Assembly: GCA_964561135.1 (NCBI GenBank)
Contig: CAZLOB010000038.1
Span: 6,427-70,426, forward strand
Direction: 5' to 3'
Origin: an uncultured Elusimicrobia bacterium
Lineage (GTDB): Bacteria; Elusimicrobiota; Endomicrobiia; DTEH01
Length of the DNA: 64,000 bases
The position numbers and the translations under genes were made by a program. Each line of letters opens with the position of its first letter. The stretch's first letter is position 1. Below are positions 14,858 to 47,489 of this stretch, one piece after another. Under the pieces are notes generated by a model that saw nothing but the letters and a program-made list of their open reading frames with translations, did no database searches and had not been told where the DNA came from.

Positions 14858-14903
14858 TTGACATTTTGTGTACAAAGTGGTATAAAGTGGTATAAAATGG
14901 TAA
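14858..14903 (+). promoter_or_regulatory. dcw-cluster promoter with MraZ operator (three 10-bp-spaced direct repeats)
   Basis: -35 TTGACA (14858-14863), 17-nt spacer, -10 TATAAA (14881-14886). Overlapping direct repeats: AAAGTGGTAT (14874-14883), AAAGTGGTAT (14884-14893), AAAATGGTAA (14894-14903). Confidence 0.5.
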
Positions 14904-14905
14904 CA

Positions 14906-15334: not shown

Positions 15335-15342
15335 TCCATTAA

Positions 15343-16245: not shown

Positions 16246-16523
16246 AAAAACATAAAAAAGAAAATAATGTTAGAAGAATTTATATAATCACGAGTATATT
16301 TTTAGCTATTGCAGTACTATTCTATTTAAGGCAACAATATATTATAATTAAACTTCAAAAAGAAATAAATAATTTATATGAACAGCTTCTTGTAGAAAGA
16401 AACAGAAACAAAGAATTAGTTTTAACTTTTCAAGCACTTATTAGTACACAACGGCTCCAAGATTATGCTAAAAAATTAAATTTTGTTCCTGTTAAACAAA
16501 ACGATTATATTTTTGTTAAATAA
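16242..16523 (+). CDS. ftsL: Cell division protein FtsL-like (small bitopic coiled-coil)
   Basis: 93 aa, single TM (IYIITSIFLAIAVLFYL) followed by a coiled coil; located between rsmH and ftsI. Confidence 0.5.
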   Translation: MKKHKKENNVRRIYIITSIFLAIAVLFYLRQQYIIIKLQKEINNLYEQLLVERNRNKELVLTFQALISTQRLQDYAKKLNFVPVKQNDYIFVK

Positions 16524-16528
16524 TTATT

Positions 16529-22266: not shown

Positions 22267-22268
22267 AA

Positions 22269-23633: not shown

Positions 23634-24745
23634 CAAAATTACAATCTGAATTAAATAAAATTCCCAAATTGTATTGCTATAATGGGTTATTTTTTATTTC
23701 AATAATTTTATCTATTTTTGGTTGCTTAATGTTGTTTTCAGCAACTGTGTGTAAAACAACTCCAACATATATATTTATCAAAAAACAAATAATCGCGTTT
23801 GTTATCGGGATATCGATATGTATTATTTTTGCAAATATTAATCACACCACTGTTTTAAAAAAGCTAACATACCCTTTATGTGTTTTTACCTTTTTATTAC
23901 TTATCATTGTCTTATTTTTCCCAAAGGTAAAAGGTGCTCATAGATGGATACAAATACCGTTTTTTGGTTCATTTCAACCTTCAGAACTTGCTAGGATAAC
24001 TTCGGTGTTGCTCACAGCAAAATTTTTAGATAAATACAGAAGTAAAATAACAAATGGTAAAAAAGAATTTTGGATTTTAAACAGTATAATTTTTTTATTT
24101 TGTTTTTTAATTTTGCTTCAACCTGATGCTGGCATACCAATGATAATTTTTATTACAACTTTTTCACTTTTTTTCTGTTATTCTGTAAAAATAAGACATT
24201 TGTTTAAGATAGGAATGGTGATTATTTTAATATTTTTAATTGCTTTATCTTCGCAACGATATAGAGTTGAAAGAATTTTATCTTTAGACGATTCAAAAAA
24301 CCCTTATTCTTATCAAATTAAACAATCAATTTTTGCGTTATCTAAAGGAGGTTTTTTAGGTTGTGGTATTGGAAAAGGTTTGTTTAAAGAGTACTACTTA
24401 CCCGAGTACCATACTGATTTTATGTTCTCGATGATAGGTGAAGAAATTGGTTTCATAGGAAGTGTTGCAACTATTATTTTTTATGTTATTTTATCAATAC
24501 TTGGATTTTCTATTGCATATAAAACATCTTTAACATATCAAGGATATTACGGCAGTATATTATCTTTAGGACTAACCTTAAACATTATAATACAAGCTTT
24601 TATGAGCATAGCGGTAGCAACAAAGATTTTTTTACCAAAAGGTATTGGTCTTCCGTTTATTTCTTATGGTGGTACTTCGTTAATTATGAACTTTTTAAGT
24701 ATAGGAATTATTTTAAATATTTGTAAGACAAAGTTGTTAAAATGA
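23630..24745 (+). CDS. ftsW: SEDS-family peptidoglycan glycosyltransferase FtsW
   Basis: Ten predicted TMs and a SEDS-like layout; located between murD and murG. Confidence 0.8.
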   Translation: MTKLQSELNKIPKLYCYNGLFFISIILSIFGCLMLFSATVCKTTPTYIFIKKQIIAFVIGISICIIFANINHTTVLKKLTYPLCVFTFLLLIIVLFFPKVKGAHRWIQIPFFGSFQPSELARITSVLLTAKFLDKYRSKITNGKKEFWILNSIIFLFCFLILLQPDAGIPMIIFITTFSLFFCYSVKIRHLFKIGMVIILIFLIALSSQRYRVERILSLDDSKNPYSYQIKQSIFALSKGGFLGCGIGKGLFKEYYLPEYHTDFMFSMIGEEIGFIGSVATIIFYVILSILGFSIAYKTSLTYQGYYGSILSLGLTLNIIIQAFMSIAVATKIFLPKGIGLPFISYGGTSLIMNFLSIGIILNICKTKLLK

Positions 24746-25863
24746 AACTTCTTGTTGTTACCTCTCCTACAGGCGGACATTTTTATCCTGCTATAGAAGT
24801 TTGTAAGAAACTTCTACCTTATTGTGAACAAATAATTTTTGTAGTCCAAAAAAGTACTAAATTTCTTAATATAATTCAGCAAGAATTTAAAGAGTTACAA
24901 AAAATAAAAATTGAATTTGTAACAGCTCCAAAGTTTCCTCGTAAAAATTTATTATTATTTTTCAAATTTTTCTTTTTGTTTTTCTCTTCGTTAATAGAAA
25001 CTTTCGTAATCTTGTTGAAATACAAACCAGAAATAATTTTTTCTACAGGCGGATATACTTCAGTCCCTGTAATTTTAAGTAGTAAACTTTTATTCCCATT
25101 TATACCAATTGTGATACATGAACAGAATTGTGTTGCAAGTTTAACAACAAAGTTTTTATCAATCATAGCAACTAAAGTATGTACAGGTTTTGAAATTAAA
25201 AAAAATAAAAAATATATTTATACTGGAAACCCTATTAGAGAGAAATTTCTTTTAAAAGTTTCAAAGGAAGAAACTATAAAACAAATAAATTTTGATGAAA
25301 ACAAACTTATTTTATTAGTTTTTGGTGGCTCTCAAGGTGCTCAAAGTATAAATAATGTTGTAACAAAATTCCTTAAAGAAAATAAAGAACTTAATTTACA
25401 AGTTGTTCATATTACTGGACAATTTGATTTCTCTAATGTAATAACAAAATATCAAACAATAAATATCAAAAATTTGGTGTTGCCTTATACTGAAAATATT
25501 CATAAGTTTTACACAATTGCAGATCTTGTTATATGTCGTGCAGGTGCTATGACTATCACAGAACTTATCTACTTTAAAAAACCAGCAATATTAATCCCGC
25601 TACCAATAGCAGCTGAGTTACATCAAAATTATAACGCTGAATTTTTAAGAAAACATGGATGCGCAAAAATTGTATATCAACGTGGCAACTGGTATACAAA
25701 ATTTAGCAAAGTTTTATTAGATTTAATCACAAATCCTCAAAAGATAACTGAAATGCAAAAAAATTATGATTCAATTCAACAACCATTTGTTAGTATTGAC
25801 ACCGTAATAAAAAAAATATATAACAAAAAATATGCAAAAAGAACAAAATGTAATAATTTATAA
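24742..25863 (+). CDS. murG: UDP-GlcNAc:lipid I GlcNAc transferase MurG
   Basis: N-terminal TSPTGGHFYPAIEV (G-loop); C-terminal ICRAGAMTITEL. Confidence 0.85.
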   Translation: MKLLVVTSPTGGHFYPAIEVCKKLLPYCEQIIFVVQKSTKFLNIIQQEFKELQKIKIEFVTAPKFPRKNLLLFFKFFFLFFSSLIETFVILLKYKPEIIFSTGGYTSVPVILSSKLLFPFIPIVIHEQNCVASLTTKFLSIIATKVCTGFEIKKNKKYIYTGNPIREKFLLKVSKEETIKQINFDENKLILLVFGGSQGAQSINNVVTKFLKENKELNLQVVHITGQFDFSNVITKYQTINIKNLVLPYTENIHKFYTIADLVICRAGAMTITELIYFKKPAILIPLPIAAELHQNYNAEFLRKHGCAKIVYQRGNWYTKFSKVLLDLITNPQKITEMQKNYDSIQQPFVSIDTVIKKIYNKKYAKRTKCNNL

Positions 25864-26476
25864 CAAAAAACTGTTAGAAACTTTACAAAAAAATCTTATT
25901 AAAAACGGTTTTGAAACAAAAGTTTTTGACGATATTGATTCTGCCAAAACATATATTTGTTCTAAAATAGGAAAAGACAAAACAATTGGTATTGGTGGGT
26001 CACAAACAGTACGCAGTATTGGTTTATTAGATGAACTTAAATCTTTAGGAAATAAAATCATAACCCACACTTCTGAAATGGACGCTCAAACAAGAATTAA
26101 TGTTTGGCTTGAAGCACAAAGAGCAGATTTTTATCTTGCCTCACCACAGGCTGTCACGATAAACGGAGAACTTATTTTCATTGATGCTTATGGTAACAGA
26201 GTAGCAGCTTGTATTTTTGGTCCTAAAAAAGTTTTTCTTATATGTGGTGTTAATAAAATAGTAAAAGATATAGAAACTGGCATTTGGCGTGCAAGAAATG
26301 TTTCTGCTGTTATAAACAACATTCGTCTTAAACGTAACAATCCATGTATCACAACAGGTTTTTGCCAAGATTGTGATTCAAAAACAAGAATATGTAATAT
26401 TCTTGTTGTACTTTATAAGAGACCTCAATATACAGATTATGAAATACTTTTAATAAACGAAAATTTAGGATTCTGA
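25832..26476 (+). CDS. LUD-domain (LutC/YkgG-like) protein
   Basis: FYLASPQAVTINGELIFIDAYGNRVAACIFGPKKVFLICGVNKIVKDIE resembles the LUD/DUF162 core. Cys-rich C-terminus. Overlaps the murG 3' end by 32 nt. Confidence 0.4.
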   Translation: MQKEQNVIIYNKKLLETLQKNLIKNGFETKVFDDIDSAKTYICSKIGKDKTIGIGGSQTVRSIGLLDELKSLGNKIITHTSEMDAQTRINVWLEAQRADFYLASPQAVTINGELIFIDAYGNRVAACIFGPKKVFLICGVNKIVKDIETGIWRARNVSAVINNIRLKRNNPCITTGFCQDCDSKTRICNILVVLYKRPQYTDYEILLINENLGF

Positions 26477-26478
26477 AA

Positions 26479-27006
26479 ATGAAAGTGATACTAAAAGAAG
26501 AACAAATTAAAAAGATAATTCATACACTTGCAAAAAAAGTTATAAAAAAATATAAAAATCTTAACAACCTTGTTATTATTGGAATACATACAAATGGAGT
26601 ATATATTGCCCAACGTCTTATAGAGAAAATTAAAAAATTAACAAAAAAGACAATAAAATTAGGTTATCTTGACATAACTTTTTATCGTGATGATATTGGA
26701 TATAAGAAAGAAATACTTCAACCAAAAGAAACAAAAATTGATTTTGATATAACAGACAAAGATGTTCTTTTAGTAGATGATGTTATTTATACCGGAAGGA
26801 CGATTCGTGCAGCAATGGACCAAATACTTGAAGTTGGTCGTCCAAAAAGTATTTCTGTATTAGTTTTAATTGACCGTGGTTTAAGAGAATTACCAATTTT
26901 TGCAGAATTTGTGGGTAAAAAAATTAAAACTACACACACACAACAAATTGAACTATTGTTAAAAGAAACCGGTGGCAATGACACGATAGTTTTATATAAA
27001 AAATAA
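26479..27006 (+). CDS. pyrR: Bifunctional pyrimidine operon regulator / uracil phosphoribosyltransferase PyrR
   Basis: PRPP-binding motif [19 protein letters not shown]. Confidence 0.85.
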
Positions 27007-27007
27007 T

Positions 27008-27955
27008 ATGTTGAAACAAACCTACAAGTTTAATCACAAACATCTATTAGGTTTAGAACATCTATCAAAAGAAGATATTGAACTTATCCTTGAGACTGCG
27101 AAACCTTTTAAAACAATTTTTACAAGAACTATAAAAAAAGTTCCTACTTTAAGAGGTAGAAGTGTTGTCTTGTTGTTTTATGAACCTTCTACAAGAACAC
27201 GAACTTCTTTTGAACTCGCTGCAAAACGTCTTTCTGCTGATACTGTCAACATAGCAGTACAAACATCAAGTGTACAAAAAGGTGAGTCATTAATAGATAC
27301 AGCAAAAACATTAGAATCAATGAAAGCAGATTTTATTGTTATTCGTCATTTTTTTTCAGGTGCACCATATCTTTTAGCAGAAAATGTTTCTTCTTCTATA
27401 ATCAACGCTGGAGATGGGTTTCATGAACATCCGACACAGGGACTTCTTGATATTTTTACAATAAAAGAAAAAAAGGGTAAAATTGAAAATTTAAAAATAG
27501 TTATTGTTGGCGATATTTTACACAGTCGTGTTGCAAGGTCTAATCTCTGGGGGTTAACAAAACTTAAAGCTAAGATAGTTCTTTGTGGTCCTCCAACACT
27601 TATACCAAAAGATATTGACAAAATTTTTCCACAAATTGATATTGAATATAATTTAGACAAAGCTATAAAAGATGCTGATGTGATTAATATCTTAAGAGTA
27701 CAGTTTGAACGACAGCTTGAACATTTATTTCCTTCAGTAAGAGAATATAGTTTGCTTTATGGTATGACAAAAGAACGTCTTGCTAAAGCAAAAAATAATG
27801 TATTGATCCTTCATCCGGGACCGATGAACCGCGGAATAGAAATTACGACTGATGTAGCAGATAGTATAAACTCAGTGATAAATGAACAAGTAACAAATGG
27901 AATAGCTGTACGTATGTCTGTTTTGTATCTTTTATCTTTAACACAACAAAAATGA
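27008..27955 (+). CDS. pyrB: Aspartate carbamoyltransferase catalytic subunit
   Basis: STRTR ([11 protein letters not shown]), HPTQ ([11 protein letters not shown]), HPGP ([10 protein letters not shown]). Confidence 0.9.
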
Positions 27956-29232
27956 AGCTTTTAATCAAAAATGGTATTGTAGTAGAACCTTCAAAAAAAT
28001 TGCAGCAACAATTAGATGTATTAATAGATAATGGTAAAATTGTAAAAATAGCAAAAAAAATTGATTTAAAAGAAAAAACAGAAATAATAAATGCAAAAAA
28101 TTGTATTGTATGTCCAGGACTGATAGATATTCATACACATCTTCGTGAACCTGGTAACGAAGAAGAAGAAACAATTGCTACCGGAACAAAATCAGCAGCA
28201 GCTGGTGGGTTTACAACTGTATTTTGTATGCCAAATACTAACCCACCTATAGACAATCAAGCAACAGTAGAACTTGTAATGCTTAAAGCAAAAAATGAAG
28301 GAGTAATAAATGTTCTCCCTATTGGATGTATAACAAAACAACGTAAAGGTGAAGAACTTACTGAAATTGGCGAACTTAAGAACGCTGGTGTTGTAGCAAT
28401 TTCTGATGATGGTTCACCAGTGAAAAATTCTAAAATAATGCGTCGTGCTTTAGAATATGCGAAAATGTTTGATTTGGTTGTTATCTCGCATTGTGAAGAT
28501 ACTGATTTAAGTAAAGATGGAGTTATAAACGAAGGAAAAGTTTCAACACAACTTGGTCTTCGTGGTATACCTAAAGAAGCAGAAGAAATTATGGTAATTC
28601 GTGATATAATTTTAGCATCTTTAACACAAAGCAGGCTTCATATTACCCATGTCTCAACAAAAGGAGCAATAGAATTTATTCGTCAAGCTAAAAAAAATGG
28701 TGTAAAAATTACCTGCGACGTCACACCACACCATTTTGTGTTAACTGAAGAGAAACTTTTAGAACGACCATATGATACAAATTTAAAGATGAACCCTCCA
28801 CTTAGAACACAGGAAGATGTCAATGCTATAATTGATGGGTTAAAAAATGATGTTATTGATTGTATATCTTCTGACCATGCACCACATACTATAGAAGAAA
28901 AAAACAAAGAATTTGATTTAGCCCCTTTTGGTATTATTGGATTGGAAACAGTTCTACCTTTATGTATTACTTATCTTTATCACTTACATAAAATTCCTTT
29001 AATAAAACTATTAGAAAAATTAACAACAAATCCAGCAAAAATCTTTAACTTGAAAACTAAAGGAAGAATAGATGAAGGTTTTGATGCTGATATAACAATT
29101 TTTTCTTTAGACGAAGAGTTTGTTGTTAAAAAATTTTATTCAAAAAGTACTAACTCACCTTTTATCGGATGGAAACTAAAAGGTAAAATAAAATATACGA
29201 TTTGTAACGGAAAAGTTGTTTTTAAAGACTAA
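27952..29232 (+). CDS. pyrC: Dihydroorotase (class I)
   Basis: [10 protein letters not shown]; [10 protein letters not shown]; size and order after pyrB. Confidence 0.9.
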
Positions 29233-32192: not shown

Positions 32193-35100
32193 TTATTTTT
32201 TAATAACAACTTGTTTTTTAGTAACAACATATTTCTTTCCTGACATTTCTTCAACTATAATTTTGCAAACATATACACCACTACCAACTTTTTGTTTTGC
32301 TTGGTTATCACATAACCATTCATATTGTTTATTTTCACCAGCAGAAGGATCAAGTTCTTCTTCTTTTACAAGTTCACCTAAAATGTTATAAATTCTTAAA
32401 GTAACTTTTTTTGCTGGATTTAATAATGAATATCTTAAAGTCACTTTACCAATTGAAGATGGATTAGGAAAAGTATACACACTATCTTTAAAAACTTCCT
32501 CTGCTGTAATAATATTTATGAAAAATTTCGATATATAAGTTGGCGAGGTGTTACCTGCGTTATCAACCAATGTTATATTTATTCTATATTCTCCATTAAT
32601 ATTCTGCTCGGGAAATGATAACAAAATAAGATAAGTAGTTGCGCTAATCTGTGTTAGTGATTTTATTGTTGAAACTTCTTTACCATCGGGACGATAAAGT
32701 CTAACATTTTGTGCTGAAAGATTTACTCCTGAACCACCTGTTTCTGTAAAAATTATTTGAATAGAACTAACTGCAACAGTAAATTTAGCGCCATCTTGTG
32801 GCCAAACAGATATAACTATTGGTGATGAAGTATCAGTTGCATATAGCTCTTGTAATTTCTTAAAGTTCACAGTAACAGAGGAAACAAGTGTGAGATCAAA
32901 ATCTATAACTTTTGCAAAAAAAGTCCTTGTTCCAGGTATGTTGCCAGTGTATACTGCTTTCACTTGACCATTAACATCTGTATAACTTGATAAAATAATA
33001 AACATATCATCTTGTGGTTTACTATCAACATATATTAAAACTTGTTTTTGTCCGATAGAAGGTATAGATGAAGAAATGATATTTCCGTATTGATCTTTAA
33101 GTGTCACCGTTATAATCACAGAACTTCCTATTAAAACATCATACGCAGTTGATTCTATTGTTGAGACAGTAGGTGACGGTTTCCCAGCAATAAGATCACT
33201 ACCTGGTAAAAACATAACAGCTGCTGTCGATAAAATTGTTTGGTTATCTGTTATATTATAAGCAGTGATAAATTTTAATTCTGCTTTTGTAGATGACAAC
33301 GTAGCAAAAGTTTGTCCTAAACTATTTGTTTTATCCTGTGGTTGAATAATTATATTCTGGGAACCAGTTACTGAAATTGACGCATCTTTATTAGCAACGG
33401 GTTGATTTGCAACATCTTTTAATGTTATAACAACATTTATTGTTGAACCAACAACAGCTTCATAATATTTTGTATAACTATCAATAATAGTCACACTTGA
33501 GAAAAATACACTTACTGCCCTTGTTATCCAAAACGTTTGTGATGCAGATTGTAATCCAGGATAAAAAACTGTAATGTTTTGTACGCCTGCTTCATTATCT
33601 CTGTATCTAAAACGCGCTTCTCCTAACACCATATTTACAGAATTACCTATCTCTACATTCGCTGTTGAACTTATAAAAGCATAATCTGAAGATGTTGTCT
33701 CTAAATAAACAATTCCTTCAATATCAACATCTTTATTTCCTTTTTCATCCTGTGCTTGGACAATAATTATTTGTGATGAAGACCCAGTAAGCAATTCCTG
33801 CCCAGCAGTAATAAATACAAGTTTTGTTGCAATAATATTATCAACTTGGAAACTCCCTGTTTGAACTGTTAAACCTACACCGTCTTCATCTTCAGGTGTA
33901 ATACGTATAGCTGTGGACACATCTTTATTGGGAAGGTCTTTTGTTGAATCCCAAATGAATGTATGTTCTTCACCTGATAAAGAAGCAAGTAAGTTTTCTG
34001 TTGGTTCTGAAGCGATCCATCTTGTAGCTGGTTTCCAATTACCATCTGTATCACGAAATTCTACTTTTATTTTACAATAATTATACGGCTCAGGTTTATC
34101 ATCTTCATCTATCAACCAATACTTTATTGTTACCAACCCTGTTTGTTCAGTAGATGGTGTTTCAATGACAACTTTTGGTGGTGTCCCTCTTACAACAAAT
34201 GTCTTAATTTCTGTGGCTTGTCCTGACGCTTCGTTTATTGATAAAACTACTGGTAAAGAAGTAGAATATATGTTATATGAATACGTTGCAATAGTTATAC
34301 TATATGGATTTTCAGCATAGAACCTATATTTTATTCTACCACCACTCCTACCAATACTACCAAACGGATAATTTATATTACTTAACACAAAATGGTATAT
34401 CTCACCATTAGTATAATCGCCATCATTACCCACACCTACTTTAAGTTGCATACCAAATTGTTCTGTTGTTTGGAATATAAGGTCATCGTTCAAATCAACC
34501 CATACTTGGACAGTAGTCGGCGGGTTACCATTACTTGCTAACCCAAGGTCAAAATATTTCACCTGAAATTCAACAGAACCAAATCTATCTATATAATTTG
34601 GTTCAACACCATCATCTACAAAACCACTAAAACCGCTATATACAATAGTAGGATCCCAATAAATTATGCTGTTAACCAAATCATCAGGTAAAAATGGTCT
34701 TGTATAATCTCTAAATGTTAAAACAGAATTTTTTGCACGAACATTAAAACATGCAGAAATTGTTGCTGTGTTTGTGTCAAGAACAATATTATCAAAAGTA
34801 TGTATGATATTGTTTGCAGTAATAAATGTAGTATATGTGGTAGCGGGTTGCAAGTTAGCAATATAAATTTTGTTTGTATTATTGAGTGGTGAACTATTAA
34901 ATGTGAGACCATTTGAATTTAAGAAAGTGAAACTTGTATATTCAATTTTAGTAATAGTTCCACCTAATGATAGTCCGTAATAAAAAAATTCTGTTCCAGA
35001 AACTATGTCATAACTTTTATCTTCAGCAAGTTTTCGCGTTACAATAGTAGGGGCTGCAGGATGACCAACAAATTCTATTGTTGCACCATCTTTGTTTTCA

Positions 35101-37475
35101 AAACATGCCCCAATATAATTGGGGTCTGAAAAATCGCATAAGTTAACTATTTTTTGTACATTTTTATCTTTTGATTCCGCGATTGTTACAAAAACATACT
35201 GTTCTCCTGGTGATATAGGTGATGCTCTATGTGTTAACCTAAACTTAACTTCTCCATTATCACTTATATAATCCTCATCATGAGTTAACAACCTTGACTG
35301 TACACCTGATTTTGTTCCATAAACTTGCCATTTATCTCCATCAGGTCCGTAACCATAACTTACAATCCATACTTCTGATTTTGTTGTAGAACTTGTTGTA
35401 ACAGATGTTATATCATTTGTCCCACCAGGGCCATCAACACCACCATCGTCGTAACGTAACATTGGTGTGTCATAAGAAAACAGTATAGTATTCCACCCAT
35501 GTGATTTTGTTTCATAAAGTTGATCTAAATAATTAAATTTTAACATATTTGAGGTATGCCAAGCATGAGCCGCTTGCGGCATTGAAAATTGTCCCCAGAT
35601 TCTTGTAAGACCCGGAATTCTATCATGATTTTGACTTATAACCCAAGAATTTTCTTTTGTAAATTCTTGTTTATATGGTGTATTGGCAAATTCTGTTGCA
35701 GAACCTAAGAAACAATTTTTCAACCATATTTGTGAAACATATCCTGTATTTTCTTCACCTTCTATATAAATATCACCACATTTGTTATCACTATAGTATT
35801 CATCAACACATAAATTGTCTATTGATGAATGTGACGCAAAACCATAACCTACATCATAACCAACATCGCCAGCATTACCAGTAGACACGTTCATCACAAA
35901 AATATTACCGTCAGAACCATATCTTACACGTATACCACCAACCTTGTTTGACCAACACTTGTTTGCACCTACATAGTTATATTTTGAACTTGACTCCAAA
36001 GCAATACCATACACACGATTGTTAAAACATTCATTGTTTATAATTACATTTTTGTTTGACCTAATTAGCGAAATACCTTCTTCTGCAAGTTGGTTATATA
36101 CTTTGTTTGAAGCAACTAAGTTTTTGTTAGAATCTTCAAAATATATCCCACGGATTTTGTTGTTATAAATCTCGTTGTATGAAATTTCGTTTTCAGAAGA
36201 ATTATCAAATCTTATCCCATATCCAACATTGCCACCTATATTTGAATAAATTTTGTTATTTCTTATATCTGACTTTTCTGTATTTTTAAACCACACACCA
36301 GCACGAACACAACTTCTTATTATATTTGATACTATCCCTTGAGAATACCACCAACGATTTATTCTTTTACAATTCTTAAACAATATCCCTGTATCAGGTG
36401 AAGAAGAAATGTCACAATTATAAAATTTTATATAATCTTTTGTACCATCAATAGGAGCACCAACACCAATGAAAACTATCCCATACAATTCATATCCTTC
36501 TGGTGTCGTTGTATCCCACAATCCTGTATGATGAACAACCACATTTTCCATTCTCATACCTACAGATGTTTCTTTATTTCGCTTCAAAGTTAAAATATAA
36601 TCAGCACTAATACTTATTGTCCTTTTAACAAATTCAGGATCAGGTTTGTCATGATTTGCCGGATTAGGATCGATTCCTACAATTTCCATATACCCTAAAT
36701 TTGTAGCGGCACCTAAATACAAATCTAATGTTGTATTGATAATTGGATTATAGAAATATATGTTTTTATTATTTTCTATTTCTTCAAAAATAAAACTACC
36801 CGGCGTGTTTATTAAAAGCATACCGTTGTTTATTAGCTTACCAGAACCATATACAGAAAAATTTACAATTGTAGATGAAACTACCTTAAATATACAATCT
36901 TTATCTATAGTAAGATTTAAAGTGTTAATAACAACATTTGAGTTTAAAGAATTACTACCAAAAACAACTTCAAACTTTGACCCATTATACTCATTTTTTG
37001 CAAGTTCTATATCTGAAAAGATGTTGATATCTACCCTTACATCTGATGTATCTATATTGATTACAAAATCGTTATTTTCTACCAACTTAAGCTTTTGGCA
37101 GGAAAGGTAGAACTTATCGTTTTCATTAGATGAATTTATTATTATTTGAGCAGCATTCCCACAATATATATCACCACTTATTGTTAAAGTGCTTCCTGTA
37201 ACACCATCAGAAACAAATCTTAATGTAGCATATTTATCTAAAGTTAATGATGCTGCAGAACATATTGCAGTAGTATCAATTATAATTATAAATCCTTGTG
37301 AAATTACAACATCATCACCTACTGTAGGAATAGTCCCGCTATCCCAAGTATTAGGTGAATTCCATAAAAGTGGTACTCCAGCTGTTCCCGTAGAAGTTAT
37401 AACTGCTGTATACCCTATTGAAGAAAATAATATGTAAAAAAGTAAAAAAGATATGAATAACTTTGTTTCTTTCAC
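32193..37475 (-). CDS. Giant (1760 aa) cell-surface protein: right-handed beta-helix (PbH1) repeats plus multiple Ig-like domains plus T9SS C-terminal sorting domain
   Basis: Signal peptide MKETKLFISFLLFYILFSSIGYTAV. Beta-helix repeats (NNKIYSNIGGNVGYGIRFDNSSENEISYNEIYNNKIRGIYFEDSNKNLVASNKVYN...). C-terminal CTD (KVTLRIYNILGELVKEEELDPSAGENKQYEWLCDNQAKQKVGSGVYVCKIIVEE...). Confidence 0.7.
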   Translation of the reverse strand: MKETKLFISFLLFYILFSSIGYTAVITSTGTAGVPLLWNSPNTWDSGTIPTVGDDVVISQGFIIIIDTTAICSAASLTLDKYATLRFVSDGVTGSTLTISGDIYCGNAAQIIINSSNENDKFYLSCQKLKLVENNDFVINIDTSDVRVDINIFSDIELAKNEYNGSKFEVVFGSNSLNSNVVINTLNLTIDKDCIFKVVSSTIVNFSVYGSGKLINNGMLLINTPGSFIFEEIENNKNIYFYNPIINTTLDLYLGAATNLGYMEIVGIDPNPANHDKPDPEFVKRTISISADYILTLKRNKETSVGMRMENVVVHHTGLWDTTTPEGYELYGIVFIGVGAPIDGTKDYIKFYNCDISSSPDTGILFKNCKRINRWWYSQGIVSNIIRSCVRAGVWFKNTEKSDIRNNKIYSNIGGNVGYGIRFDNSSENEISYNEIYNNKIRGIYFEDSNKNLVASNKVYNQLAEEGISLIRSNKNVIINNECFNNRVYGIALESSSKYNYVGANKCWSNKVGGIRVRYGSDGNIFVMNVSTGNAGDVGYDVGYGFASHSSIDNLCVDEYYSDNKCGDIYIEGEENTGYVSQIWLKNCFLGSATEFANTPYKQEFTKENSWVISQNHDRIPGLTRIWGQFSMPQAAHAWHTSNMLKFNYLDQLYETKSHGWNTILFSYDTPMLRYDDGGVDGPGGTNDITSVTTSSTTKSEVWIVSYGYGPDGDKWQVYGTKSGVQSRLLTHDEDYISDNGEVKFRLTHRASPISPGEQYVFVTIAESKDKNVQKIVNLCDFSDPNYIGACFENKDGATIEFVGHPAAPTIVTRKLAEDKSYDIVSGTEFFYYGLSLGGTITKIEYTSFTFLNSNGLTFNSSPLNNTNKIYIANLQPATTYTTFITANNIIHTFDNIVLDTNTATISACFNVRAKNSVLTFRDYTRPFLPDDLVNSIIYWDPTIVYSGFSGFVDDGVEPNYIDRFGSVEFQVKYFDLGLASNGNPPTTVQVWVDLNDDLIFQTTEQFGMQLKVGVGNDGDYTNGEIYHFVLSNINYPFGSIGRSGGRIKYRFYAENPYSITIATYSYNIYSTSLPVVLSINEASGQATEIKTFVVRGTPPKVVIETPSTEQTGLVTIKYWLIDEDDKPEPYNYCKIKVEFRDTDGNWKPATRWIASEPTENLLASLSGEEHTFIWDSTKDLPNKDVSTAIRITPEDEDGVGLTVQTGSFQVDNIIATKLVFITAGQELLTGSSSQIIIVQAQDEKGNKDVDIEGIVYLETTSSDYAFISSTANVEIGNSVNMVLGEARFRYRDNEAGVQNITVFYPGLQSASQTFWITRAVSVFFSSVTIIDSYTKYYEAVVGSTINVVITLKDVANQPVANKDASISVTGSQNIIIQPQDKTNSLGQTFATLSSTKAELKFITAYNITDNQTILSTAAVMFLPGSDLIAGKPSPTVSTIESTAYDVLIGSSVIITVTLKDQYGNIISSSIPSIGQKQVLIYVDSKPQDDMFIILSSYTDVNGQVKAVYTGNIPGTRTFFAKVIDFDLTLVSSVTVNFKKLQELYATDTSSPIVISVWPQDGAKFTVAVSSIQIIFTETGGSGVNLSAQNVRLYRPDGKEVSTIKSLTQISATTYLILLSFPEQNINGEYRINITLVDNAGNTSPTYISKFFINIITAEEVFKDSVYTFPNPSSIGKVTLRYSLLNPAKKVTLRIYNILGELVKEEELDPSAGENKQYEWLCDNQAKQKVGSGVYVCKIIVEEMSGKKYVVTKKQVVIKK

Positions 37476-41379: not shown

Positions 41380-42648
41380 TTATAAACTCCCAGGTTCTAC
41401 GAAACCTGCTTCTTTTATATCTAAAGATAGTTTTAGAGAACCAAACTGAATTATTTTAATGTTCTTATTTAAATTTTCCTTTGGTATATATATATAAATC
41501 TTTCTATTCGCAAAATCAATTTTTTCAATTATACCTAAACTAATAACCTCATGTGTTTCGTCTAACAATGCTACCATGACTTCGTTAAAATTGTTTTTTA
41601 TTACATTCTTAATTTTTTTAACACCATAAATTTTTTTTATTTCTTCTATTTCTTTTTGGTTTAAAAATTTTTCAGAAACAACATATAAACCTTCAACCCC
41701 TGACAGTTTTTCTATCCACAAAACATTGGATGATATTTCTTTTTGTATTTGAAGTTGTTCTCCTGTAAGAAAATACACGCGGTCTGTTTTTATATCATCA
41801 AAATTAAACATAATCTTTTCAAGTTGTGAAAAATATTTTTTATAAACAAACTCGCGTAACTTCTTTCGTTCTTCAGCAGAAGTAGGTGTTACTTTTTTTG
41901 ACACAGTAAGTTTTATAACCTTATCTTTTGGTAAGGTTGTAACTAAATGTTCAACTTCGTTTTTCCTTTGAAGAAGAACCACAGCAAAGTTTGTACCTAA
42001 AGCTCTTAAAAGTTCTATTTCTGAATTTCTTAATATCCTTCCACCATCACCTAAAACCCATCCTGGCGTATCTATAATTATAATATCAGAATTTTCAATA
42101 CCGTATTTGACCAGCTTTGTAAATCCACATAAATAATATAGAAAATGTTCTGATGGAGAATGAGAACCCACAAAATAAAGTTTTTGTGGTTCAACTTCAG
42201 TCATAAAAAGGACTGGTTTTTTAATTATCGCAACTCCTAATGTGGAAGGAGGACCTATATCTGACTGTCCTGTGTCACAGTCTAAAACTGACGGAATTAA
42301 ATTTTTTGCTAAAAGTTTGTTCACTATATACGTAGTGAGAAATGTCTTACCAGTGTCAACTTCACCAAAAATTATCATTGAATTAATTTTCTTGGATATC
42401 AAATAATCAACAACTTTATCCCAATCTTCAGGTATGGTTCTTGCTTGCAATTTCTCAACTAAATCTAAATTTTCAATTTCAAACACTGCTTCCGTATGTA
42501 CTTCAATAGGTATTCTCTTCCCTGTAGGAATAAAAATTTCTTCATTTTGAAATTTTTTACCAATTGCTTCAACCTCTCCTGAGACAATTTTTATTCTGTT
42601 TGGACCAGAAACTAAATATAGACCTTTTTGAAAAACTTCTCTCTTCAT
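41380..42648 (-). CDS. Clp1/Grc3-like P-loop NTPase (COG1341-type polynucleotide kinase-like)
   Basis: N-terminal beta domain; Walker A FGEVDTGKTFLTTYI; Walker B-like IIIIDTPGWV; C-terminal domain. The layout resembles archaeal/eukaryotic Clp1. Confidence 0.45.
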   Translation of the reverse strand: MKREVFQKGLYLVSGPNRIKIVSGEVEAIGKKFQNEEIFIPTGKRIPIEVHTEAVFEIENLDLVEKLQARTIPEDWDKVVDYLISKKINSMIIFGEVDTGKTFLTTYIVNKLLAKNLIPSVLDCDTGQSDIGPPSTLGVAIIKKPVLFMTEVEPQKLYFVGSHSPSEHFLYYLCGFTKLVKYGIENSDIIIIDTPGWVLGDGGRILRNSEIELLRALGTNFAVVLLQRKNEVEHLVTTLPKDKVIKLTVSKKVTPTSAEERKKLREFVYKKYFSQLEKIMFNFDDIKTDRVYFLTGEQLQIQKEISSNVLWIEKLSGVEGLYVVSEKFLNQKEIEEIKKIYGVKKIKNVIKNNFNEVMVALLDETHEVISLGIIEKIDFANRKIYIYIPKENLNKNIKIIQFGSLKLSLDIKEAGFVEPGSL

Positions 42649-42661
42649 TTTTTAAAACTTA

Positions 42662-43060
42662 TTATTTTTTAAACCTTAACGAAGGCAAAAGTTTATAAAG
42701 GATATCTTTTTCAATTTTATAGATTTTCTGTTTATTATTGATGCGAAGTTTTAATTTTTTACTATTAGACATAACTTTAACATTTCTCAAATATATGTTA
42801 TTTTTATCAATCTTTTCAACAACTGCTTCATAGGTGTTAATTTTATCTTTTACAATTACATGGTCTCCTTTTTTTATCTCACTAACTTCTTGTTCCTTTA
42901 TTAAATTTTCTAAACACATGTTCACAATACCAATATAAATAGGTACTTTTTTATATAAATTATAAGCTTGTTCCACGATTTCTTCAGCAGGTATCCCTTT
43001 TTTGATATAATTAACCAAAATCTCTAACATTTGTGGAAATTCAGATTCTTTATATGTCAT
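42662..43060 (-). CDS. Hypothetical protein (132 aa)
   Basis: Intact ORF, co-directional with downstream genes; no recognizable motif. Confidence 0.3.
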   Translation of the reverse strand: MTYKESEFPQMLEILVNYIKKGIPAEEIVEQAYNLYKKVPIYIGIVNMCLENLIKEQEVSEIKKGDHVIVKDKINTYEAVVEKIDKNNIYLRNVKVMSNSKKLKLRINNKQKIYKIEKDILYKLLPSLRFKK

Positions 43061-43099
43061 AACTTTTTTAAATCTTCAATGCTAAACTTAAAAATATGA

Positions 43100-43916
43100 T
43101 CCAAATCAATATTTCATACGTTCATATAAATTTTCTAATAGGAGGATATTTAATATCTCTCACTATTTGTGTTAATTTATAACATTACAGAACTATCTTT
43201 AACAAATTCCATTATTTTTTATATATTTTTATCCCATCTCCAATTCTTTTCGCAGCAAACTATATCGTATGATAAACTTCCTGTGATTCCCTTGCTTTAC
43301 TAGCATGACATATAATGGACATTCTGTATTCTTTCGCATATTCAAAAAATTTTTTAAACAAAGCAACACTATATTTTGACTCATCTCCAACTAAATCTAT
43401 CCCCTACAACACTGTCACCAAAATATTTCTCAGCAATTTTCGTTGTTTTCCAATTTTGTTTTTTCAATAATTGTGTACCTATATAGACACAAAATTATTC
43501 CAACTTTTTCAGCAAACTTTTTTCTCAGTATTTGACACCGGTAAGAACATTTCTAACAACATCTATCTTTTTCTGAAGAATTCTATTTGTTTGCAAAGTT
43601 AAAGCGAAACTTATTTCTAAATACTTAATATTTTTTCTCTGCTGCCTTTTCACAAACTTCTTAACTTACACGTTCTAACACACCTGGAAATTTTATTATA
43701 TCATAAAAAAGTCAAAAGTTTTAAGAAACTCTATAAGTGATTTACATTTTGTGATACTTGAACATATTCACGAAGTTTATCAACATAGTATGTTGGCAGT
43801 TTAAAATTATGTTTTATAGCTGACTCAAAAATCGTCTCAACTCGGGCAGAATCATCTAAATATTTATGTAGGTCAATTTTTGGTAGTAATGATATAATTT
43901 CCTTTTTTATACTCAT
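43100..43916 (-). pseudogene. add: Degraded adenosine deaminase (add) pseudogene
   Basis: Minus-strand N-terminal fragment MSIKKEIISLLPKIDLHKYLDDSARVETIFESAIKHNFKLP aligns to the ADA N-terminus (LPKxDLHxHLDGSxRxxT), but HxH has become HKY and DG has become DD. It is followed by a stop. Downstream, in other frames, remnants IDLVGDESKYSVALFKKFFEYAKEYRMSIICHAS (the GDE...HAGE block) and FAAKRIGDGIKI (RIGHG changed to RIGDG) are interrupted by stops and frameshifts. Confidence 0.5.
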
Positions 43917-44005
43917 AATAGGTGGGGGCAAAATTATACAAAATAAAAAATTAATTGTCAAGAAGAGTAAAAAAGTCAAAAGTTGAAGGTTAAAAGTTTT
44001 TTTCT

Positions 44006-44031
44006 GTAGCCGACCCTTAAGGGTCGGCTAC
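44006..44031. terminator. GC-rich perfect hairpin (11-bp stem, 4-nt loop) downstream of carB; terminator-like
   Basis: GTAGCCGACCC-TTAA-GGGTCGGCTAC. On the plus strand it is flanked by a 5' TTTTTTT run and a 3' U-rich TATAATTCTGCTATAATTCT. On the carB (minus) strand the 3' side is A-rich, so strand assignment is ambiguous. Confidence 0.35.
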
Positions 44032-44060
44032 TATAATTCTGCTATAATTCTACTATATAT

Positions 44061-47000
44061 CTACATATTTGTTTGGAACCATTTTTGTAATGGAAGGACA
44101 TCGAAATTTATCTTTTGTTTTTGCTCATTATAATTTTTTCTTAGTTCTTTAATAGATTCAACGACAGATTTTGCTGCTTCTAATGTTGTGATTACAGGAA
44201 TATTATTAACAGTAGCAGTTCTACGGATAAGGAAACCGTCTGAAAAAGATTTTCCTTTACCTGTAGGCGTGTTTATCACAAGTTGTACTTCATGGTTGGA
44301 AATTATATCAACTATATTTGGCCTTCCTTCGGAAAGTTTGTTTATTTTTTGACATTGGATACCATGTTTTGTAAAAAATTCGGCAGTACCTGAAGTAGCG
44401 ATAAGTTTAAAACCTAAATTAAAAAGTTCTTTTGCTATTTTTAAAGCTTTTGGTTTATCTTTATTATTTAAACTAAACAATATTTTACCGTTTAGTGGAA
44501 TGTTGCTGTTAGCAGCAAATTGTGATTTTGCATAGGCTAAAGGAAATGTTTTGTCAATACCCATAACTTCGCCAGTGGAACGCATCTCAGGTGATAAAAC
44601 TATATCTACATCAGCAAATTTTTGAAATGGTAAAACAACTTCTTTTACAGTGTAATATTTAAGGTTGAAAACTTTGTCTTGTGAAAAATTATATTTTTTT
44701 AATAAATCTTTAATCTTATGTCCCAACATTACTTTTGTAGCAACTTTTGCAATAGGTAATCCTACTGATTTTGAAACATAGGGCACAGTTCTTGAAGCAC
44801 GTGGGTTAACTTCTAATACATATATAACACCATCTTTGATTGCTAACTGTAAATTCATCAATCCCTTTACTTTTAACTCTTTTGATAGAACCTTTACATA
44901 TTTACATATTGTTTGTATTTGTTGACTTGTTAATGAAACTGGTGGTATCACGCACGCACTATCTCCAGAATGTACACCTGCAGCTTCAATATGTTCCATA
45001 ATACCTGCAATAAAAACTTCATCAATATCACATACTGCATCTACATCAAGTTCAATAGCTTCTTCTAAAAACCGATCAATTATTACAACATTTGAAACGT
45101 CTTTTGTTAACGAAGTTTCAAAAAGCTCTGATAAATACTCTTTTAAAGAATCTTCATCGTATATAACTTCCATTGCCCGTCCACCTAAAACATATGAAGG
45201 TCTTACAATAACAGGATATCCAATTTTTTGAACAATCATTAATGCTTCTTTATAACTTCTTGCATAACCATGTTCAGGATAAGGCAACTTAAGTTTCTTT
45301 AACACTTTTGCAAAAAGTTCTCTATCTTCAGCTAAAGCAATACTTTCAGGCTGTGTACCTAAAACTTTTACACCATAATCTTTTAATTTTTTTGATATAT
45401 TTAGTGGTGTTTGTCCTCCAAATTGTAACATGACACCTAAAAGTTTAGTTCTTGTCTTTTTAGCTATCTCTTCTTCTGTTTTATATACATTATATACATC
45501 TTCAAAAGTGATCGGTTCAAAATAAAGTTTGTCTGCTGTATCATAATCAGTTGATACTGTTTCAGGATTACAGTTAATCATAATCGCTTCATACCCTTCT
45601 TCTTTTATAGCCATAACAGCGTGAACACAACAATAATCAAATTCAATCCCTTGACCTATACGATTAGGTCCCGAACCTAAAACTATTACTTTGTCTTTAT
45701 TTTTATGATACTCTATTGATTCATTGAAGCAATGTATTAATTCTTCTTTATCAGATAAAGAATATTCTTCTCTATATAAAACACCGTCATATGTTGAATA
45801 AAAATATGGGGTATACGACTCAAACTCTGCTGCACAAGTGTCTACTACTTTATAATTCGGGAACAAATTGTTTTTTATTCTAAATTTGGCAATTCTATCT
45901 TCAGTAGTTTTAATCAAGTTTGCAATATGTCTATCTGAAAACCCAAAACTTTTTGCTTTAACTAAAACTTTAGTAAATTCTTTATTCTTTTTTTTGTTTT
46001 TTAAACTTTTAATCTCTTTTTCCAATTCGATAATTTCTTTAATTTGATATATAAACCATTTATCTATTTTTGAAAGTTCAAATATTTCTTCGGGTGTTTT
46101 ATTCAACATTAAGGCATATTTGATGTTAAAAATTCTGTCACAATTCGGGTTTCTTAATTTATATTCAATATTCTTAAGTATCTCTTGTTTTTTTTCTTCA
46201 GGTAAACTATCAAATTGTTCAATAAAATTTTCTGTATCTAAACCACTCCTTCCAATTTCTAACCCACGTAAAGCTTTCTGCAATGCTTCTTTAAATGTTC
46301 GTCCAATTGCCATTACTTCCCCAATAGATTTCATCTGTGAACCTAAAATTTGATAAGAATAGTCTTTTTTACCATCTTTTGAAACAGGCCTAAACTTTTC
46401 AAAAGCAAACTTCGGAATTTTTACAACAACATAATCTATTGTTGGTTCAAAACATGCAGGAGTTTTTTTAGTTATATCATTAGGAATTTCATCTAAAGTA
46501 TATCCAACAGCTAAAAGAGCAGCTATTTTCGCAATAGGGAAACCAGTTGCTTTTGACGCCAAAGCTGAAGATCTTGACACACGCGGATTCATCTCTATTA
46601 TAACGATCCTGCCTGTTTTAGGATTAACAGCAAACTGTATGTTTGACCCGCCAGTTTCAACTCCTACTGCACGAATACACTTAAACGCCATATCACGCAT
46701 CCTCTGATATTCTTTATCAGTTAATGTTTGTGCTGGAGCAACAGTTATTGAATCCCCTGTATGTACTCCCATTGGATCAAAATTTTCTATAGTGCAGACT
46801 ACAACACAGTTGTCTTTACAATCACGCATTACTTCAAGCTCATATTCTTTCCATCCATCAAGATATTCTTCAATAAGTATCTCTGAAATCATTGACGATT
46901 GTAACGCATTTTTTGCTGCTTCAACAAATTCTTCTTCATTAAAAACAATTTTTGAACCTGTCCCACCTAAAGTAAACGAAGGACGTATTATCAAAGGAAA

Positions 47001-47489
47001 ACCAATTTCTTTTGCAACTTTTACCGCTTCATCTAAACTATATGCGAAACCACTTTTCGGTAAATCAAGACCAGCTTTCATCATTGTTTCTTTAAACAAC
47101 TTTCTATCTTCACCACGACGTATCGCATCAACTTTTGCTCCAATAAGTTCAACATTATATTTTTCTAAAACCCCCATTTCGTAAAGTTTAACAGCTAGAT
47201 TTAAAGCTGTTTGTCCACCTAAGGTTGGTAATAACGCGTCAGGCCGTTCTTTCTCTATGATACGTTCTAAAATTTCAGGAATTAGAGGTTCAACATAAGT
47301 AGTATCAGCAAATTCAGGATCTGTCATAATTGTTGCAGGATTTGAATTGACAAGTACTACTTTGTATCCTTCCTTTTTTAAAGCTTTGATAGCCTGTGTA
47401 CCAGAATAATCAAATTCACATGCTTGCCCAATAACAATAGGGCCTGAACCAATAATAAGTATTTTTTTGATATCTTTACGTTTTGGCAT
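44061..47489 (-). CDS. carB: Carbamoyl-phosphate synthase large subunit
   Basis: 1142 aa. Duplicated ATP-grasp halves ([19 protein letters not shown]...; [19 protein letters not shown]...) and a C-terminal MGS-like domain. Confidence 0.95.

What the first reader, a model, noticed from the sequence alone, without database searches (positions are those of the whole stretch)
43100..43979. Decaying adenosine deaminase gene with successive loss of the zinc-ligand histidines
The recognisable ADA blocks are present but disrupted. HxHLDG has become HKYLDD and is followed by a stop. The GDE...HAGE block reads HASKARE after an apparent frameshift. RIGHG has become RIGDG, and further stops follow. The region (~860 nt) is otherwise ORF-free on both strands. 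This looks like recent pseudogenization of purine salvage in this lineage. The 82-aa ORF in the track (43731..43979) is only the N-terminal relic.
Basis: seen in the sequence. Interest (0 to 1): 0.5.

Follow-up and report, generated by a model that had tools for sequence, protein, structure and literature searches.

The report
Dead adenosine deaminase gene, lost repeatedly
The region is a genuine, heavily decayed remnant of an adenosine deaminase gene in a hot-spring Endomicrobiia bacterium; this is ordinary gene decay, and the only notable point is that sister lineages have broken the same gene independently.

Summary
Window 43061-43915 (minus strand) is the relic of an add (adenosine deaminase) gene. 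It lies between carB and a conserved 132-aa ORF, exactly where relatives carry an intact 340-350-aa add gene.

Compared with the closest intact orthologue (P0001/L001), the relic has:
- 9 frameshifting indels
- 4-5 nonsense substitutions
- an in-frame 21-nt deletion
- a 3' deletion running up to the ATG of the next gene
- loss or replacement of key motifs: HRH to HKY, HAGE to HASK, RIGHG to RIGDG, with CLTSN and NTDD deleted

Ten independent metagenome assemblies, several from Great Boiling Spring, Nevada, carry the same indels. Sequencing error is therefore excluded. SNP density in the relic is 3-8 times that of the flanking genes. One stop codon and the HAGE histidine are still polymorphic between strains.

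"Recent" is not supported. The decay predates all sampled strains and probably covers a large part of the time since the split from sister species.

New finding: add was disabled independently at least three times in this genus-level clade (window lineage, L002/L019, L020-22). All outgroups keep it intact.

A perfect sigma-70-type promoter upstream of the relic is retained. It probably still drives the downstream operon. This is an ordinary pseudogene and of modest interest.

The parts
43061..43915 (-). Relic of the add (adenosine deaminase) gene. It runs from the ancestral ATG (43915-43913) to the deletion junction directly before the ATG of the next gene. About 855 nt remain of an ancestral ~1029 nt.
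   Evidence: tblastn of P0001; Pfam PF00962 at 75.9 bits; nucleotide alignments to the intact orthologue L001; lesion table.
43933..43961 (-). Sigma-70-type promoter TTGACA-17 nt-TATAAT (12 of 12 consensus matches) upstream of the relic. The -35 box and a C-rich box before the ATG are conserved in relatives.
   Evidence: Promoter scan; upstream sequences of 11 related loci. That it still functions, driving the downstream operon, is inferred.
43731..43915 (-). Residual 61-codon N-terminal ORF (MSIKKE...NVNHL, stop TAG 43733-43731). It ends because of a 1-nt deletion after 43752. Gene callers annotate it as a 61-aa fragment with a weak A_deaminase hit.
43851..43868 (-). HKYLDD, ancestral HRHLDG. 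The second metal-ligand His is changed to Tyr (CAT to TAT) and the invariant Gly to Asp (GGT to GAT).
   Evidence: The motif is intact in L001-L006, L023 and L024.
43296..43310 (-). CHASK, ancestral CHAGE. The His is retained in the window and the catalytic Glu is changed to Lys. Strains L007 and L016 carry 43307 C>A, which turns this His into Asn.
43233..43247 (-). RIGDG, ancestral RIGHG. The catalytic His is changed to Asp.
43096..43752 (-). Span holding the indels. Frameshifting indels, with the base after which each lies: -1 (43752), -1 (43712), -2 (43641), -1 (43525), -2 (43465), +1 (43404), -7 (43221), -20 (43174, removes CLTSNVQ), -37 (43128, removes the NTDD region). In-frame changes: a 3-nt insertion (43567) and a 21-nt deletion (43096).
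   Evidence: from the alignment. The second alignment splits the 37-nt gap into 32 + 5 nt.
43114..43663 (-). Span holding the nonsense substitutions in the ancestral frame: TAC>TAA (43663-43661), GGA>TGA (43527-43525; polymorphic, other strains keep GGA), AAA>TAG (43262-43260), GAG>TAA (43179-43177) and TCA>TGA (43116-43114; the alignment here is uncertain).
43061..43064 (-). 3' deletion junction. About 95 nt are missing: the last ~27 codons, the stop codon and the 4-nt spacer. The relic now abuts the ATG (43060) of the 132-aa ORF.
42662..43060 (-). Intact downstream gene of 132 aa (no family match). It directly follows add in all relatives. It is listed as context and is probably co-transcribed.
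44061..47489 (-). carB, the intact upstream neighbour. It anchors the synteny.

Best explanation
This is a vertically inherited (unitary) pseudogene of add, the zinc-dependent adenosine deaminase that converts adenosine to inosine.

The ancestor of this thermophilic Endomicrobiia lineage carried add between carB and a 132-aa gene, as the first gene of an operon driven by a TTGACA/TATAAT promoter. In the window's lineage the enzyme stopped being needed and the gene drifted. It now has 9 frameshifts and 4-5 stop codons. Metal-binding and catalytic residues are replaced, two catalytic motifs are deleted, and the 3' end is missing up to the next gene's start codon. It cannot encode an active deaminase.

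The decay is fixed in the natural population and is still going on, because strains differ by further lesions. The same gene was broken independently in two sister lineages. The most likely cause is therefore relaxed, or possibly reversed, selection on adenosine deamination across the clade, not an accident in one strain.

The promoter and 5' end are probably kept because they still transcribe the downstream genes, which makes the relic a long untranslated leader.

Shown: the gene's identity, the lesions, their fixation, the elevated polymorphism and the independent losses. Inferred: the reason for the loss, the promoter's present role and the timing.
For: - Identity and orthology. The closest intact protein is P0001 (342 aa, E 2e-74). 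It passes the NCBIfam equivalog TIGR01430 adenosine deaminase at 310 bits (cut-off 216.6) and matches solved bacterial and mammalian ADA structures. Its contig L001 has the order carA-carB-add-132aa-CLP1_P-PhoU_div, identical to the window. Five GTDB MAGs of Endomicrobiia and two further metagenome contigs show the same order.
- Lesions are listed.
- Not an artefact. The 1000-nt spacer is 98.5-99.8% identical in 10 assemblies from different samples and pipelines (JGI, ENA, Logan). Every frameshift of the relic is shared, and only two gaps differ: one extra 1-nt deletion in L009 (43464) and a 12-nt insertion in L008 in the carB-proximal spacer.
- Relaxed constraint. SNP density is 4.3 per kb in the relic against 0.5-1.8 per kb in flanking genes. 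Identity to L001 at ancestral codon positions 1/2/3 is 0.77/0.84/0.65, against 0.82-0.92/0.89-0.96/0.61-0.69 for the neighbours.
- Ongoing decay. The TGA at 43527 is derived and other strains keep GGA. In L007 and L016, 43307 C>A removes the HAGE histidine.
- Independent losses. L020-22 are 96-97% identical in flanking DNA to L001, which is intact. They share GAA>TAA at codon 81, a 37-nt deletion and a ~229-nt deletion. L002 and L019 share a +1 frameshift at codon 304 and CAA>TAA at codon 334, and L019 has one more frameshift. None of these lesions is shared with the window. Add evolved under purifying selection between L001 and L002 (0.93/0.95/0.73 identity at positions 1/2/3), so it was functional after the lineages split.
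- Promoter. It matches the consensus 12 of 12, and the -35 box is conserved in relatives. In L001 add and the next gene are 4 nt apart.
Against: - No expression data are available, so neither silence of the relic nor read-through into the downstream genes is shown.
- SNP counts come from a few assemblies that share variants. Seven of the 39 SNPs sit at one contig end (L010) and may be an assembly artefact. Without them the density is about 3.5 per kb.
- The reason for the loss is untested, because only 64 kb of the genome is available. An alternative deaminase or salvage route could exist elsewhere.
- Promoter-like matches in this AT-rich region are as frequent as in shuffled sequence (15 found, 11.8 expected). 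Only the 12/12 match and its conservation single this one out.
Confidence: 0.93

Rival explanations
1. The frameshifts and stops are sequencing or assembly errors in an AT-rich, homopolymer-rich region, and the gene is really intact.
For: Several 1-nt indels lie in or next to A/T runs. One assembly (L009) differs by a 1-nt deletion in an A run.
Against: Ten independent assemblies from different samples and assemblers share all indels. The lesions also include nonsense substitutions, deletions of 7, 20, 21 and 37 nt, a ~95-nt 3' deletion, and replacement of invariant catalytic residues. Homopolymer errors cannot produce these.
Confidence: 0.01
2. The gene is still functional through recoding: programmed frameshifting, stop-codon reassignment or a split enzyme.
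For: None specific. Three fragments are still recognisable in different frames.
Against: All three stop codons (TAA, TAG, TGA) occur in the ancestral frame, while neighbouring genes end normally. The NTDD metal and catalytic aspartates and the CLTSN strand are deleted. The catalytic Glu is changed to Lys and the catalytic His to Asp. Polymorphism is elevated.
Confidence: 0.01
3. The relic has been exapted. It persists because it carries the operon promoter and serves as a needed 5' leader, or because its 61-codon N-terminal ORF encodes a small protein, and is not simply a remnant awaiting deletion.
For: - The 12/12 promoter is retained in the window and a conserved -35 box in the decayed L020-22 copies.
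- The downstream genes are tightly packed and lack an obvious promoter of their own.
- The 5' 54 codons are somewhat better conserved (0.81/0.91/0.75) than the rest (about 0.78/0.84/0.61).
- No SNP was seen in 43731-43915 in 8 assemblies.
Against: - The absence of SNPs in 185 nt is not significant (about 2 expected).
- The invariant His and Gly inside the 61-aa ORF are replaced.
- There is no Rfam match and no sign of a structured RNA.
- Most of the relic (43061-43730) shows elevated polymorphism and large lineage-specific deletions, so its sequence is not constrained.
- A promoter role explains retention of the first ~50 nt only.
Confidence: 0.3
4. Add was inactivated only once, in the common ancestor of the window, L001, L002 and L020-22 lineages, by a lesion that is not visible. 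All copies, including the 'intact' L001 ORF, have been decaying since.
For: Three of the four sampled lineages in this clade show damage.
Against: - No lesion is shared between lineages.
- L001 against L002 shows a strong codon-position signature of purifying selection (0.93/0.95/0.73).
- L001 retains every catalytic motif and passes the equivalog cut-off.
- L020-22 differ from the intact L001 by only 3-4% in flanking DNA.
Confidence: 0.05

Closest known systems
Bacterial adenosine deaminase Add (TIGR01430 / Pfam PF00962; solved structures such as 6n91, 6n9m and mouse ADA 1a4l/2ada)
   Same: The relic clearly descends from this family. It keeps the order of conserved blocks (LPKxDLHxH, FLxTFDF, GxDLxGDE, CHAGE, RIGHG), and its orthologues in relatives are full members.
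   Different: There is no open frame. One metal-ligand His, the ligand Asp, the catalytic Glu and the catalytic His are replaced or deleted, and the C-terminus is missing. It is a dead descendant, not a member with enzymatic function.
Unitary pseudogenes in bacterial genomes, decaying by frameshifts, nonsense mutations and a bias towards deletions (general knowledge of bacterial pseudogene dynamics; not tested against a specific paper here)
   Same: Small indels, AT-ward nonsense substitutions and progressively larger deletions occur at the original chromosomal position. Polymorphism is elevated. L022, then L021/L020, form a nested series of increasing decay.
   Different: The host appears to be a free-living or particle-attached hot-spring thermophile with otherwise dense coding: this is the only ~1-kb non-coding gap in 64 kb. 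It is not a host-restricted symbiont with many pseudogenes. The relic has also persisted unusually long relative to species divergence.
Pseudogene-rich intracellular Endomicrobia of termite-gut flagellates (recalled from the literature; not examined here)
   Same: Same bacterial class (Endomicrobiia), according to the record titles of the related MAGs.
   Different: The window shows no general gene decay, and the samples are geothermal. The loss is specific to one gene and recurrent across lineages. It is not part of genome-wide erosion.

Membership tests
Adenosine deaminase (Add; PF00962 / TIGR01430), functional member | Significant sequence similarity to the family profile | tested here: met
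   The stitched translation scores 75.9 bits on PF00962 (cut-off 27). tblastn with P0001 gives E 1e-40 and 2e-21. The intact orthologue P0001 scores 310 bits on TIGR01430 (cut-off 216.6).
Adenosine deaminase (Add; PF00962 / TIGR01430), functional member | One uninterrupted reading frame of about 330-350 codons | tested here: not met
   There are 9 frameshifting indels, 4-5 in-frame stops and a truncated 3' end. The longest ORF is 82 aa.
Adenosine deaminase (Add; PF00962 / TIGR01430), functional member | Zinc ligands: the two His of HxH, the His of HAGE and the first Asp of (N/S)TDD. Residue roles come from established mouse ADA structural work; motif correspondence was checked against PDB alignments. 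| tested here: not met
   HRH has become HKY (second His changed to Tyr). The NTDD region is deleted. The HAGE His is retained in the window but changed to Asn in strains L007 and L016.
Adenosine deaminase (Add; PF00962 / TIGR01430), functional member | Catalytic Glu of HAGE and catalytic His of RIGHG | tested here: not met
   HAGE has become HASK (Glu changed to Lys). RIGHG has become RIGDG (His changed to Asp).
Unitary pseudogene of add | Lies at the orthologous chromosomal position of an intact gene in relatives | tested here: met
   The order carA-carB-add-132aa-CLP1_P-PhoU_div is found in L001, L003-L006, L023 and L024 with add intact. The nucleotide alignment runs through both flanks.
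Unitary pseudogene of add | Disabling lesions are real, meaning reproducible in independent data | tested here: met
   The same indels are present in 10 assemblies from different samples.
Unitary pseudogene of add | Evolves without protein-level constraint | tested here: met
   SNP density is 4.3 per kb against 0.5-1.8 per kb in the neighbours. There is excess divergence at ancestral codon positions 1 and 2. A stop codon and a ligand His are polymorphic. Caveat: the sample is small and the variants are not independent.
Unitary pseudogene of add | No functional product (no protein, no activity) | not testable with these tools
   This needs proteomics or an enzyme assay.

The most novel reading that the evidence does not exclude
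Loss of adenosine deaminase is favoured, not merely tolerated, in this thermophilic Endomicrobiia clade. It has happened at least three times independently, and intact and decayed alleles coexist in strains only 3-4% apart. This could reflect a shift to dependence on partner organisms or on another purine route at high temperature. In parallel, the dead gene may be kept as a promoter-bearing leader for the downstream CLP1_P/PhoU_div/TsaE operon. If so, the nested series of alleles would be a natural time course of pseudogene decay in a free-living thermophile.
Probability: 0.15. Interest if true: 0.45.

Novelty: new member of a known kind. Interest (0 to 1): 0.25.

Why it matters
In itself this is one more bacterial pseudogene, and its main use is to prevent mis-annotation of the 61- or 82-aa ORF as a gene.

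It is worth slightly more than that for three reasons:
- The host is an uncultivated hot-spring Endomicrobiia with otherwise compact, intact coding.
- The relic is old but still recognisable.
- The same gene has been disabled independently in at least three closely related lineages, while one strain (L001) and all outgroups keep it.

This pattern points to a clade-wide change in purine nucleoside metabolism that could inform cultivation attempts. It also gives a small natural series for studying how fast and by which steps pseudogenes erode outside host-restricted bacteria.

Tried and rejected
- Hidden RNA genes. An Rfam scan of 42000-44600 at E<=1 gave only a chance miRNA-family hit (22 bits against a gathering score of 63). 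ARAGORN found no tRNA there.
- A second deaminase in the window. tblastn with ADA hits only the relic. A Pfam scan of 40 window ORFs found no other A_deaminase and only one amidohydrolase, a dihydroorotase-like protein next to pyrB. This covers 64 kb only.
- Source genome. The GTDB representative scan returned no identical contig. The best match was 81% (L002).
- Sample origin. Searching papers for accession numbers placed two samples at Great Boiling Spring and one outgroup contig in a paper on thermostable Cas12a orthologs. The origins of L001 and L019-22 were not found. A published GBS Elusimicrobia co-assembly (GBS-CoSAG_05, 32.3% GC) may or may not be this organism. This was not tested.
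- Terminators and promoters. The terminator scan found none. Promoter-like sites are at chance frequency apart from the 12/12 site.
- A selected 61-aa N-terminal peptide. There is no significant evidence for it.
- Loss of the ribosome-binding site of the 132-aa gene. The GGAG found upstream of that gene's ATG in L001 and L002 was removed by the 3' deletion. Only 7 of 40 genes in the window have such a motif, so its loss says little.
- Rfam on L001 and L002, including the GC-rich carB-add spacer of L001 and the 230-nt insertion of L002: no match.

Full report
**What is in the sequence.** The window is AT-rich (29% G+C). On the minus strand carB (44061-47489) is followed by a 1000-nt stretch with no ORF longer than 82 aa on either strand. 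After it come a 132-aa ORF (42662-43060), a 422-aa CLP1_P-domain protein and a PhoU_div protein.
- MSIKKEIISLLPKIDLHKYLDDS...
- FLKTFDFF
- VLERVS*EVCEKAAEKKY
- GIDLVGDESKYSV...CHASKARE
- RIGDG

**Is it more than chance?** Yes.
- An unguided tblastn of an intact relative (P0001) against the whole window hits only this place, in three pieces in two frames, with E 1.3e-40 and 2e-21.
- My stitched translation scores 75.9 bits on Pfam A_deaminase (cut-off 27).
- It retrieves intact 340-351-aa proteins from Endomicrobiia metagenomes at up to E 2e-74 and 51% identity.
- P0001 passes the NCBIfam equivalog model for adenosine deaminase (TIGR01430, 310 bits, cut-off 216.6).
- P0001 aligns end to end with solved bacterial and mammalian ADA structures, with HRH, HAGE, RIGHG and NTDDP conserved.

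**Orthology.** The contig that encodes P0001 (L001) has the gene order carA-carB-add-132aa-CLP1_P-PhoU_div-...-TsaE-TsaD, the same as the window. The DNA aligns through the promoter, the gene and into the next gene. Five Endomicrobiia MAGs from GTDB (L002-L006) and further metagenome contigs (L019-L024) carry add at the same place. The relic is therefore the vertically inherited copy and not a stray fragment.

**Lesions, relative to L001 and L002.**
- Frameshifting indels, with the base after which each lies: -1 (43752), -1 (43712), -2 (43641), -1 (43525), -2 (43465), +1 (43404), -7 (43221), -20 (43174) and -37 (43128).
- In-frame changes: a 3-nt insertion and a 21-nt deletion.
- Nonsense substitutions in the ancestral frame: TAC>TAA (43663), GGA>TGA (43527), AAA>TAG (43262) and GAG>TAA (43179). 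A further TCA>TGA (43116) lies in a poorly aligned stretch.
- A 3' deletion of about 95 nt removes the last ~27 codons, the stop codon and the spacer. The relic now abuts the ATG of the 132-aa gene.
- Motif changes: HRHLDG to HKYLDD, CHAGE to CHASK and RIGHG to RIGDG. CLTSN and NTDD are deleted.

Residue roles come from established knowledge of ADA structures. Only the second of the three zinc-ligand histidines is lost in this window. The ligand aspartate is deleted, and the catalytic Glu and His are replaced. The ancestral start codon is at 43915. The 82-aa ORF in the track begins 21 codons earlier, at a TTG inside the promoter.

**Not an artefact.** The exact 132-aa protein occurs on at least 13 contigs from JGI, ENA and Logan assemblies. 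In the ten retrieved (L007-L016), the 1000-nt spacer is 98.5-99.8% identical to the window. Every frameshift of the relic is shared, and only two gaps differ: a 1-nt deletion in L009 and a 12-nt insertion near carB in L008. Gene callers in those projects also found only a 61-aa fragment with a weak A_deaminase hit. Two of the samples are from Great Boiling Spring, Nevada: the 70 C sediment metagenome 3300020139 (PMC6624737) and an in-situ corn-stover enrichment, 3300005298 (bioRxiv 10.1101/2022.12.01.518715). The organism is thus a hot-spring Endomicrobiia and not a termite-gut symbiont.

**Relaxed constraint and ongoing decay.**
- Across those assemblies the relic carries 4.3 SNPs per kb, against 0.5-1.8 per kb in carB, the 132-aa gene, CLP1_P and PhoU_div. 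The figure is about 3.5 per kb if a cluster at one contig end is discounted.
- Against L001, identity at ancestral codon positions 1/2/3 is 0.77/0.84/0.65. Flanking genes show 0.82-0.92/0.89-0.96/0.61-0.69. Positions 1 and 2 have diverged far more than in any functional neighbour, yet a codon signature remains.
- A rough Jukes-Cantor calculation from these numbers suggests the gene has been unconstrained for roughly a third to three quarters of the time since this lineage split from its sister species. This is inference, and saturation at AT-rich third positions makes it crude. "Recent" is not the right word.
- Polarising the SNPs with outgroups shows that the TGA at 43527 is derived, since other strains keep GGA. 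Strains L007 and L016 have changed the HAGE histidine to Asn (43307 C>A). Lesions are still accumulating, and they differ between strains.

**The same gene is dying in sister lineages.** A tree of the flanking 1.7 kb gives three groups: (L001 with L020-22), (L002 with L019), and the window. These are about 80-85% identical to one another. Outgroups L023/24 and L003-6 are 62-74% identical to them. Add is intact in all outgroups and in L001.
- L020-22 are 96-97% identical to L001 in flanking DNA. They share GAA>TAA at codon 81, a 37-nt deletion and a ~229-nt deletion covering codons 112-187. L020 and L021 add a 60-nt deletion and further frameshifts, which gives a nested decay series.
- L002 and L019 are 99.9% identical to each other and come from different sources. 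They share a +1 frameshift at codon 304 and CAA>TAA at codon 334 but keep all catalytic motifs. L019 has one more frameshift, at codon 218.
- None of these lesions is shared with the window.
- Add evolved under purifying selection between L001 and L002 (0.93/0.95/0.73).

At least three independent inactivations are therefore the best reading. That points to clade-wide relaxed selection, or possibly selection for loss, on adenosine deamination. I could not test the reason, because only 64 kb of this genome is available. Within the window there is no other ADA-family gene. The only other amidohydrolase is a dihydroorotase-like protein beside pyrB.

**Why the relic persists.** This part is inference.
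- A 12-of-12 TTGACA-17-TATAAT promoter lies at 43961-43933.
- The -35 box, the spacing and a C-rich box (CCCxCCT) just before the ATG are conserved in relatives, including the decayed L020-22 copies.
- In L001 add and the next gene are 4 nt apart, and the following genes are tightly packed.

The simplest reading is that add was the first gene of an operon and that its promoter is still needed. The relic would then be transcribed as an ~850-nt leader. This explains retention of the 5' end only. The rest appears to be slowly deleted: 855 of 1029 nt remain, and the deletions are lineage-specific.

**Other readings considered.** No Rfam family or tRNA lies in the region. Recoding is excluded by the deleted catalytic motifs and by the presence of all three stop codons. 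A functional 61-aa peptide has no significant support.

**Verdict.** This is an ordinary unitary pseudogene. It is otherwise the only long non-coding gap in a densely coding 64-kb window. The modest added interest is the recurrent, independent loss of add in a thermophilic Endomicrobiia clade and the natural series of decay stages it provides.

Noticed in passing
L002 4340-5400 and L019 1-1047: The sister lineage carries an early-stage damaged add gene. A +1 A insertion at codon 304 gives a 306-aa ORF, and CAA>TAA occurs at codon 334, while all catalytic motifs are intact. Both lesions are present in two independent assemblies. L019 has an extra 1-nt deletion at codon 218. Whether the 306-aa product is active is unknown.
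   Followed up: partly
L020, L021, L022 (about 2290-3049 in each): These strains are 96-97% identical to L001 (intact add) in flanking DNA but carry a nested series of add deletions: 37 nt and ~229 nt shared by all three, and 60 nt more in L020 and L021. L020 also has HRH changed to HRL and LDG to LDD. The Gly-to-Asp change parallels the one in the window.
   Followed up: partly
window 43916-43930, and the 15 nt before the add ATG in L001-L006, L020-L024: A C-rich box (CCCACCT, CCCGCCT, CCTCACCT or CCCTTCCT) sits where a Shine-Dalgarno site would be and is conserved across all lineages in a 29% G+C genome. It has the sense of the anti-SD sequence, not its complement. Only 7 of 40 window genes have an SD-like motif, and several have a TATAAT within ~15 nt of the ATG, which suggests short or absent leaders.
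   Followed up: no
window 44006-44031: A perfect G+C-rich palindrome (GTAGCCGACCC TTAA GGGTCGGCTAC) lies just downstream of carB and is unique in the window. It is followed by an A run and then TTTT, so the terminator scan did not call it. Assembly L008 has a 12-nt duplication (CTACAGAAAAAA) beside it.
   Followed up: partly
L001 9658-10000: The carB-add spacer of L001 is about 340 nt and contains a comparatively G+C-rich segment that is absent from the window. It has no Rfam match.
   Followed up: partly
L002 5357-5587 and L019 about 817-1047: A ~230-nt insertion lies between add and the 132-aa gene in this lineage only. Its content is unknown.
   Followed up: no
L009 3413-4594: In one assembly of the window's species the CLP1_P gene is called as 393 aa instead of 422, with 2 gap positions relative to the window. 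This is either an assembly error or a strain-level frameshift.
   Followed up: no
window 6193-11346 (+) and 32193-37475 (-): Two very large ORFs (1717 and 1760 aa) were not examined.
   Followed up: no
window 14858-29232 (+): A dcw cell-wall cluster (mraZ, mraW, a transpeptidase, three Mur ligases, mraY-like, ftsW, murG-like) is followed by a LUD-domain protein, a PyrR-like phosphoribosyltransferase, pyrB and a dihydroorotase-like gene. All appear intact.
   Followed up: partly
window 42662-43060 (-): The 132-aa protein that always follows add in this class has no Pfam or NCBIfam match. It is conserved (46-77% identity) across all related loci.
   Followed up: partly
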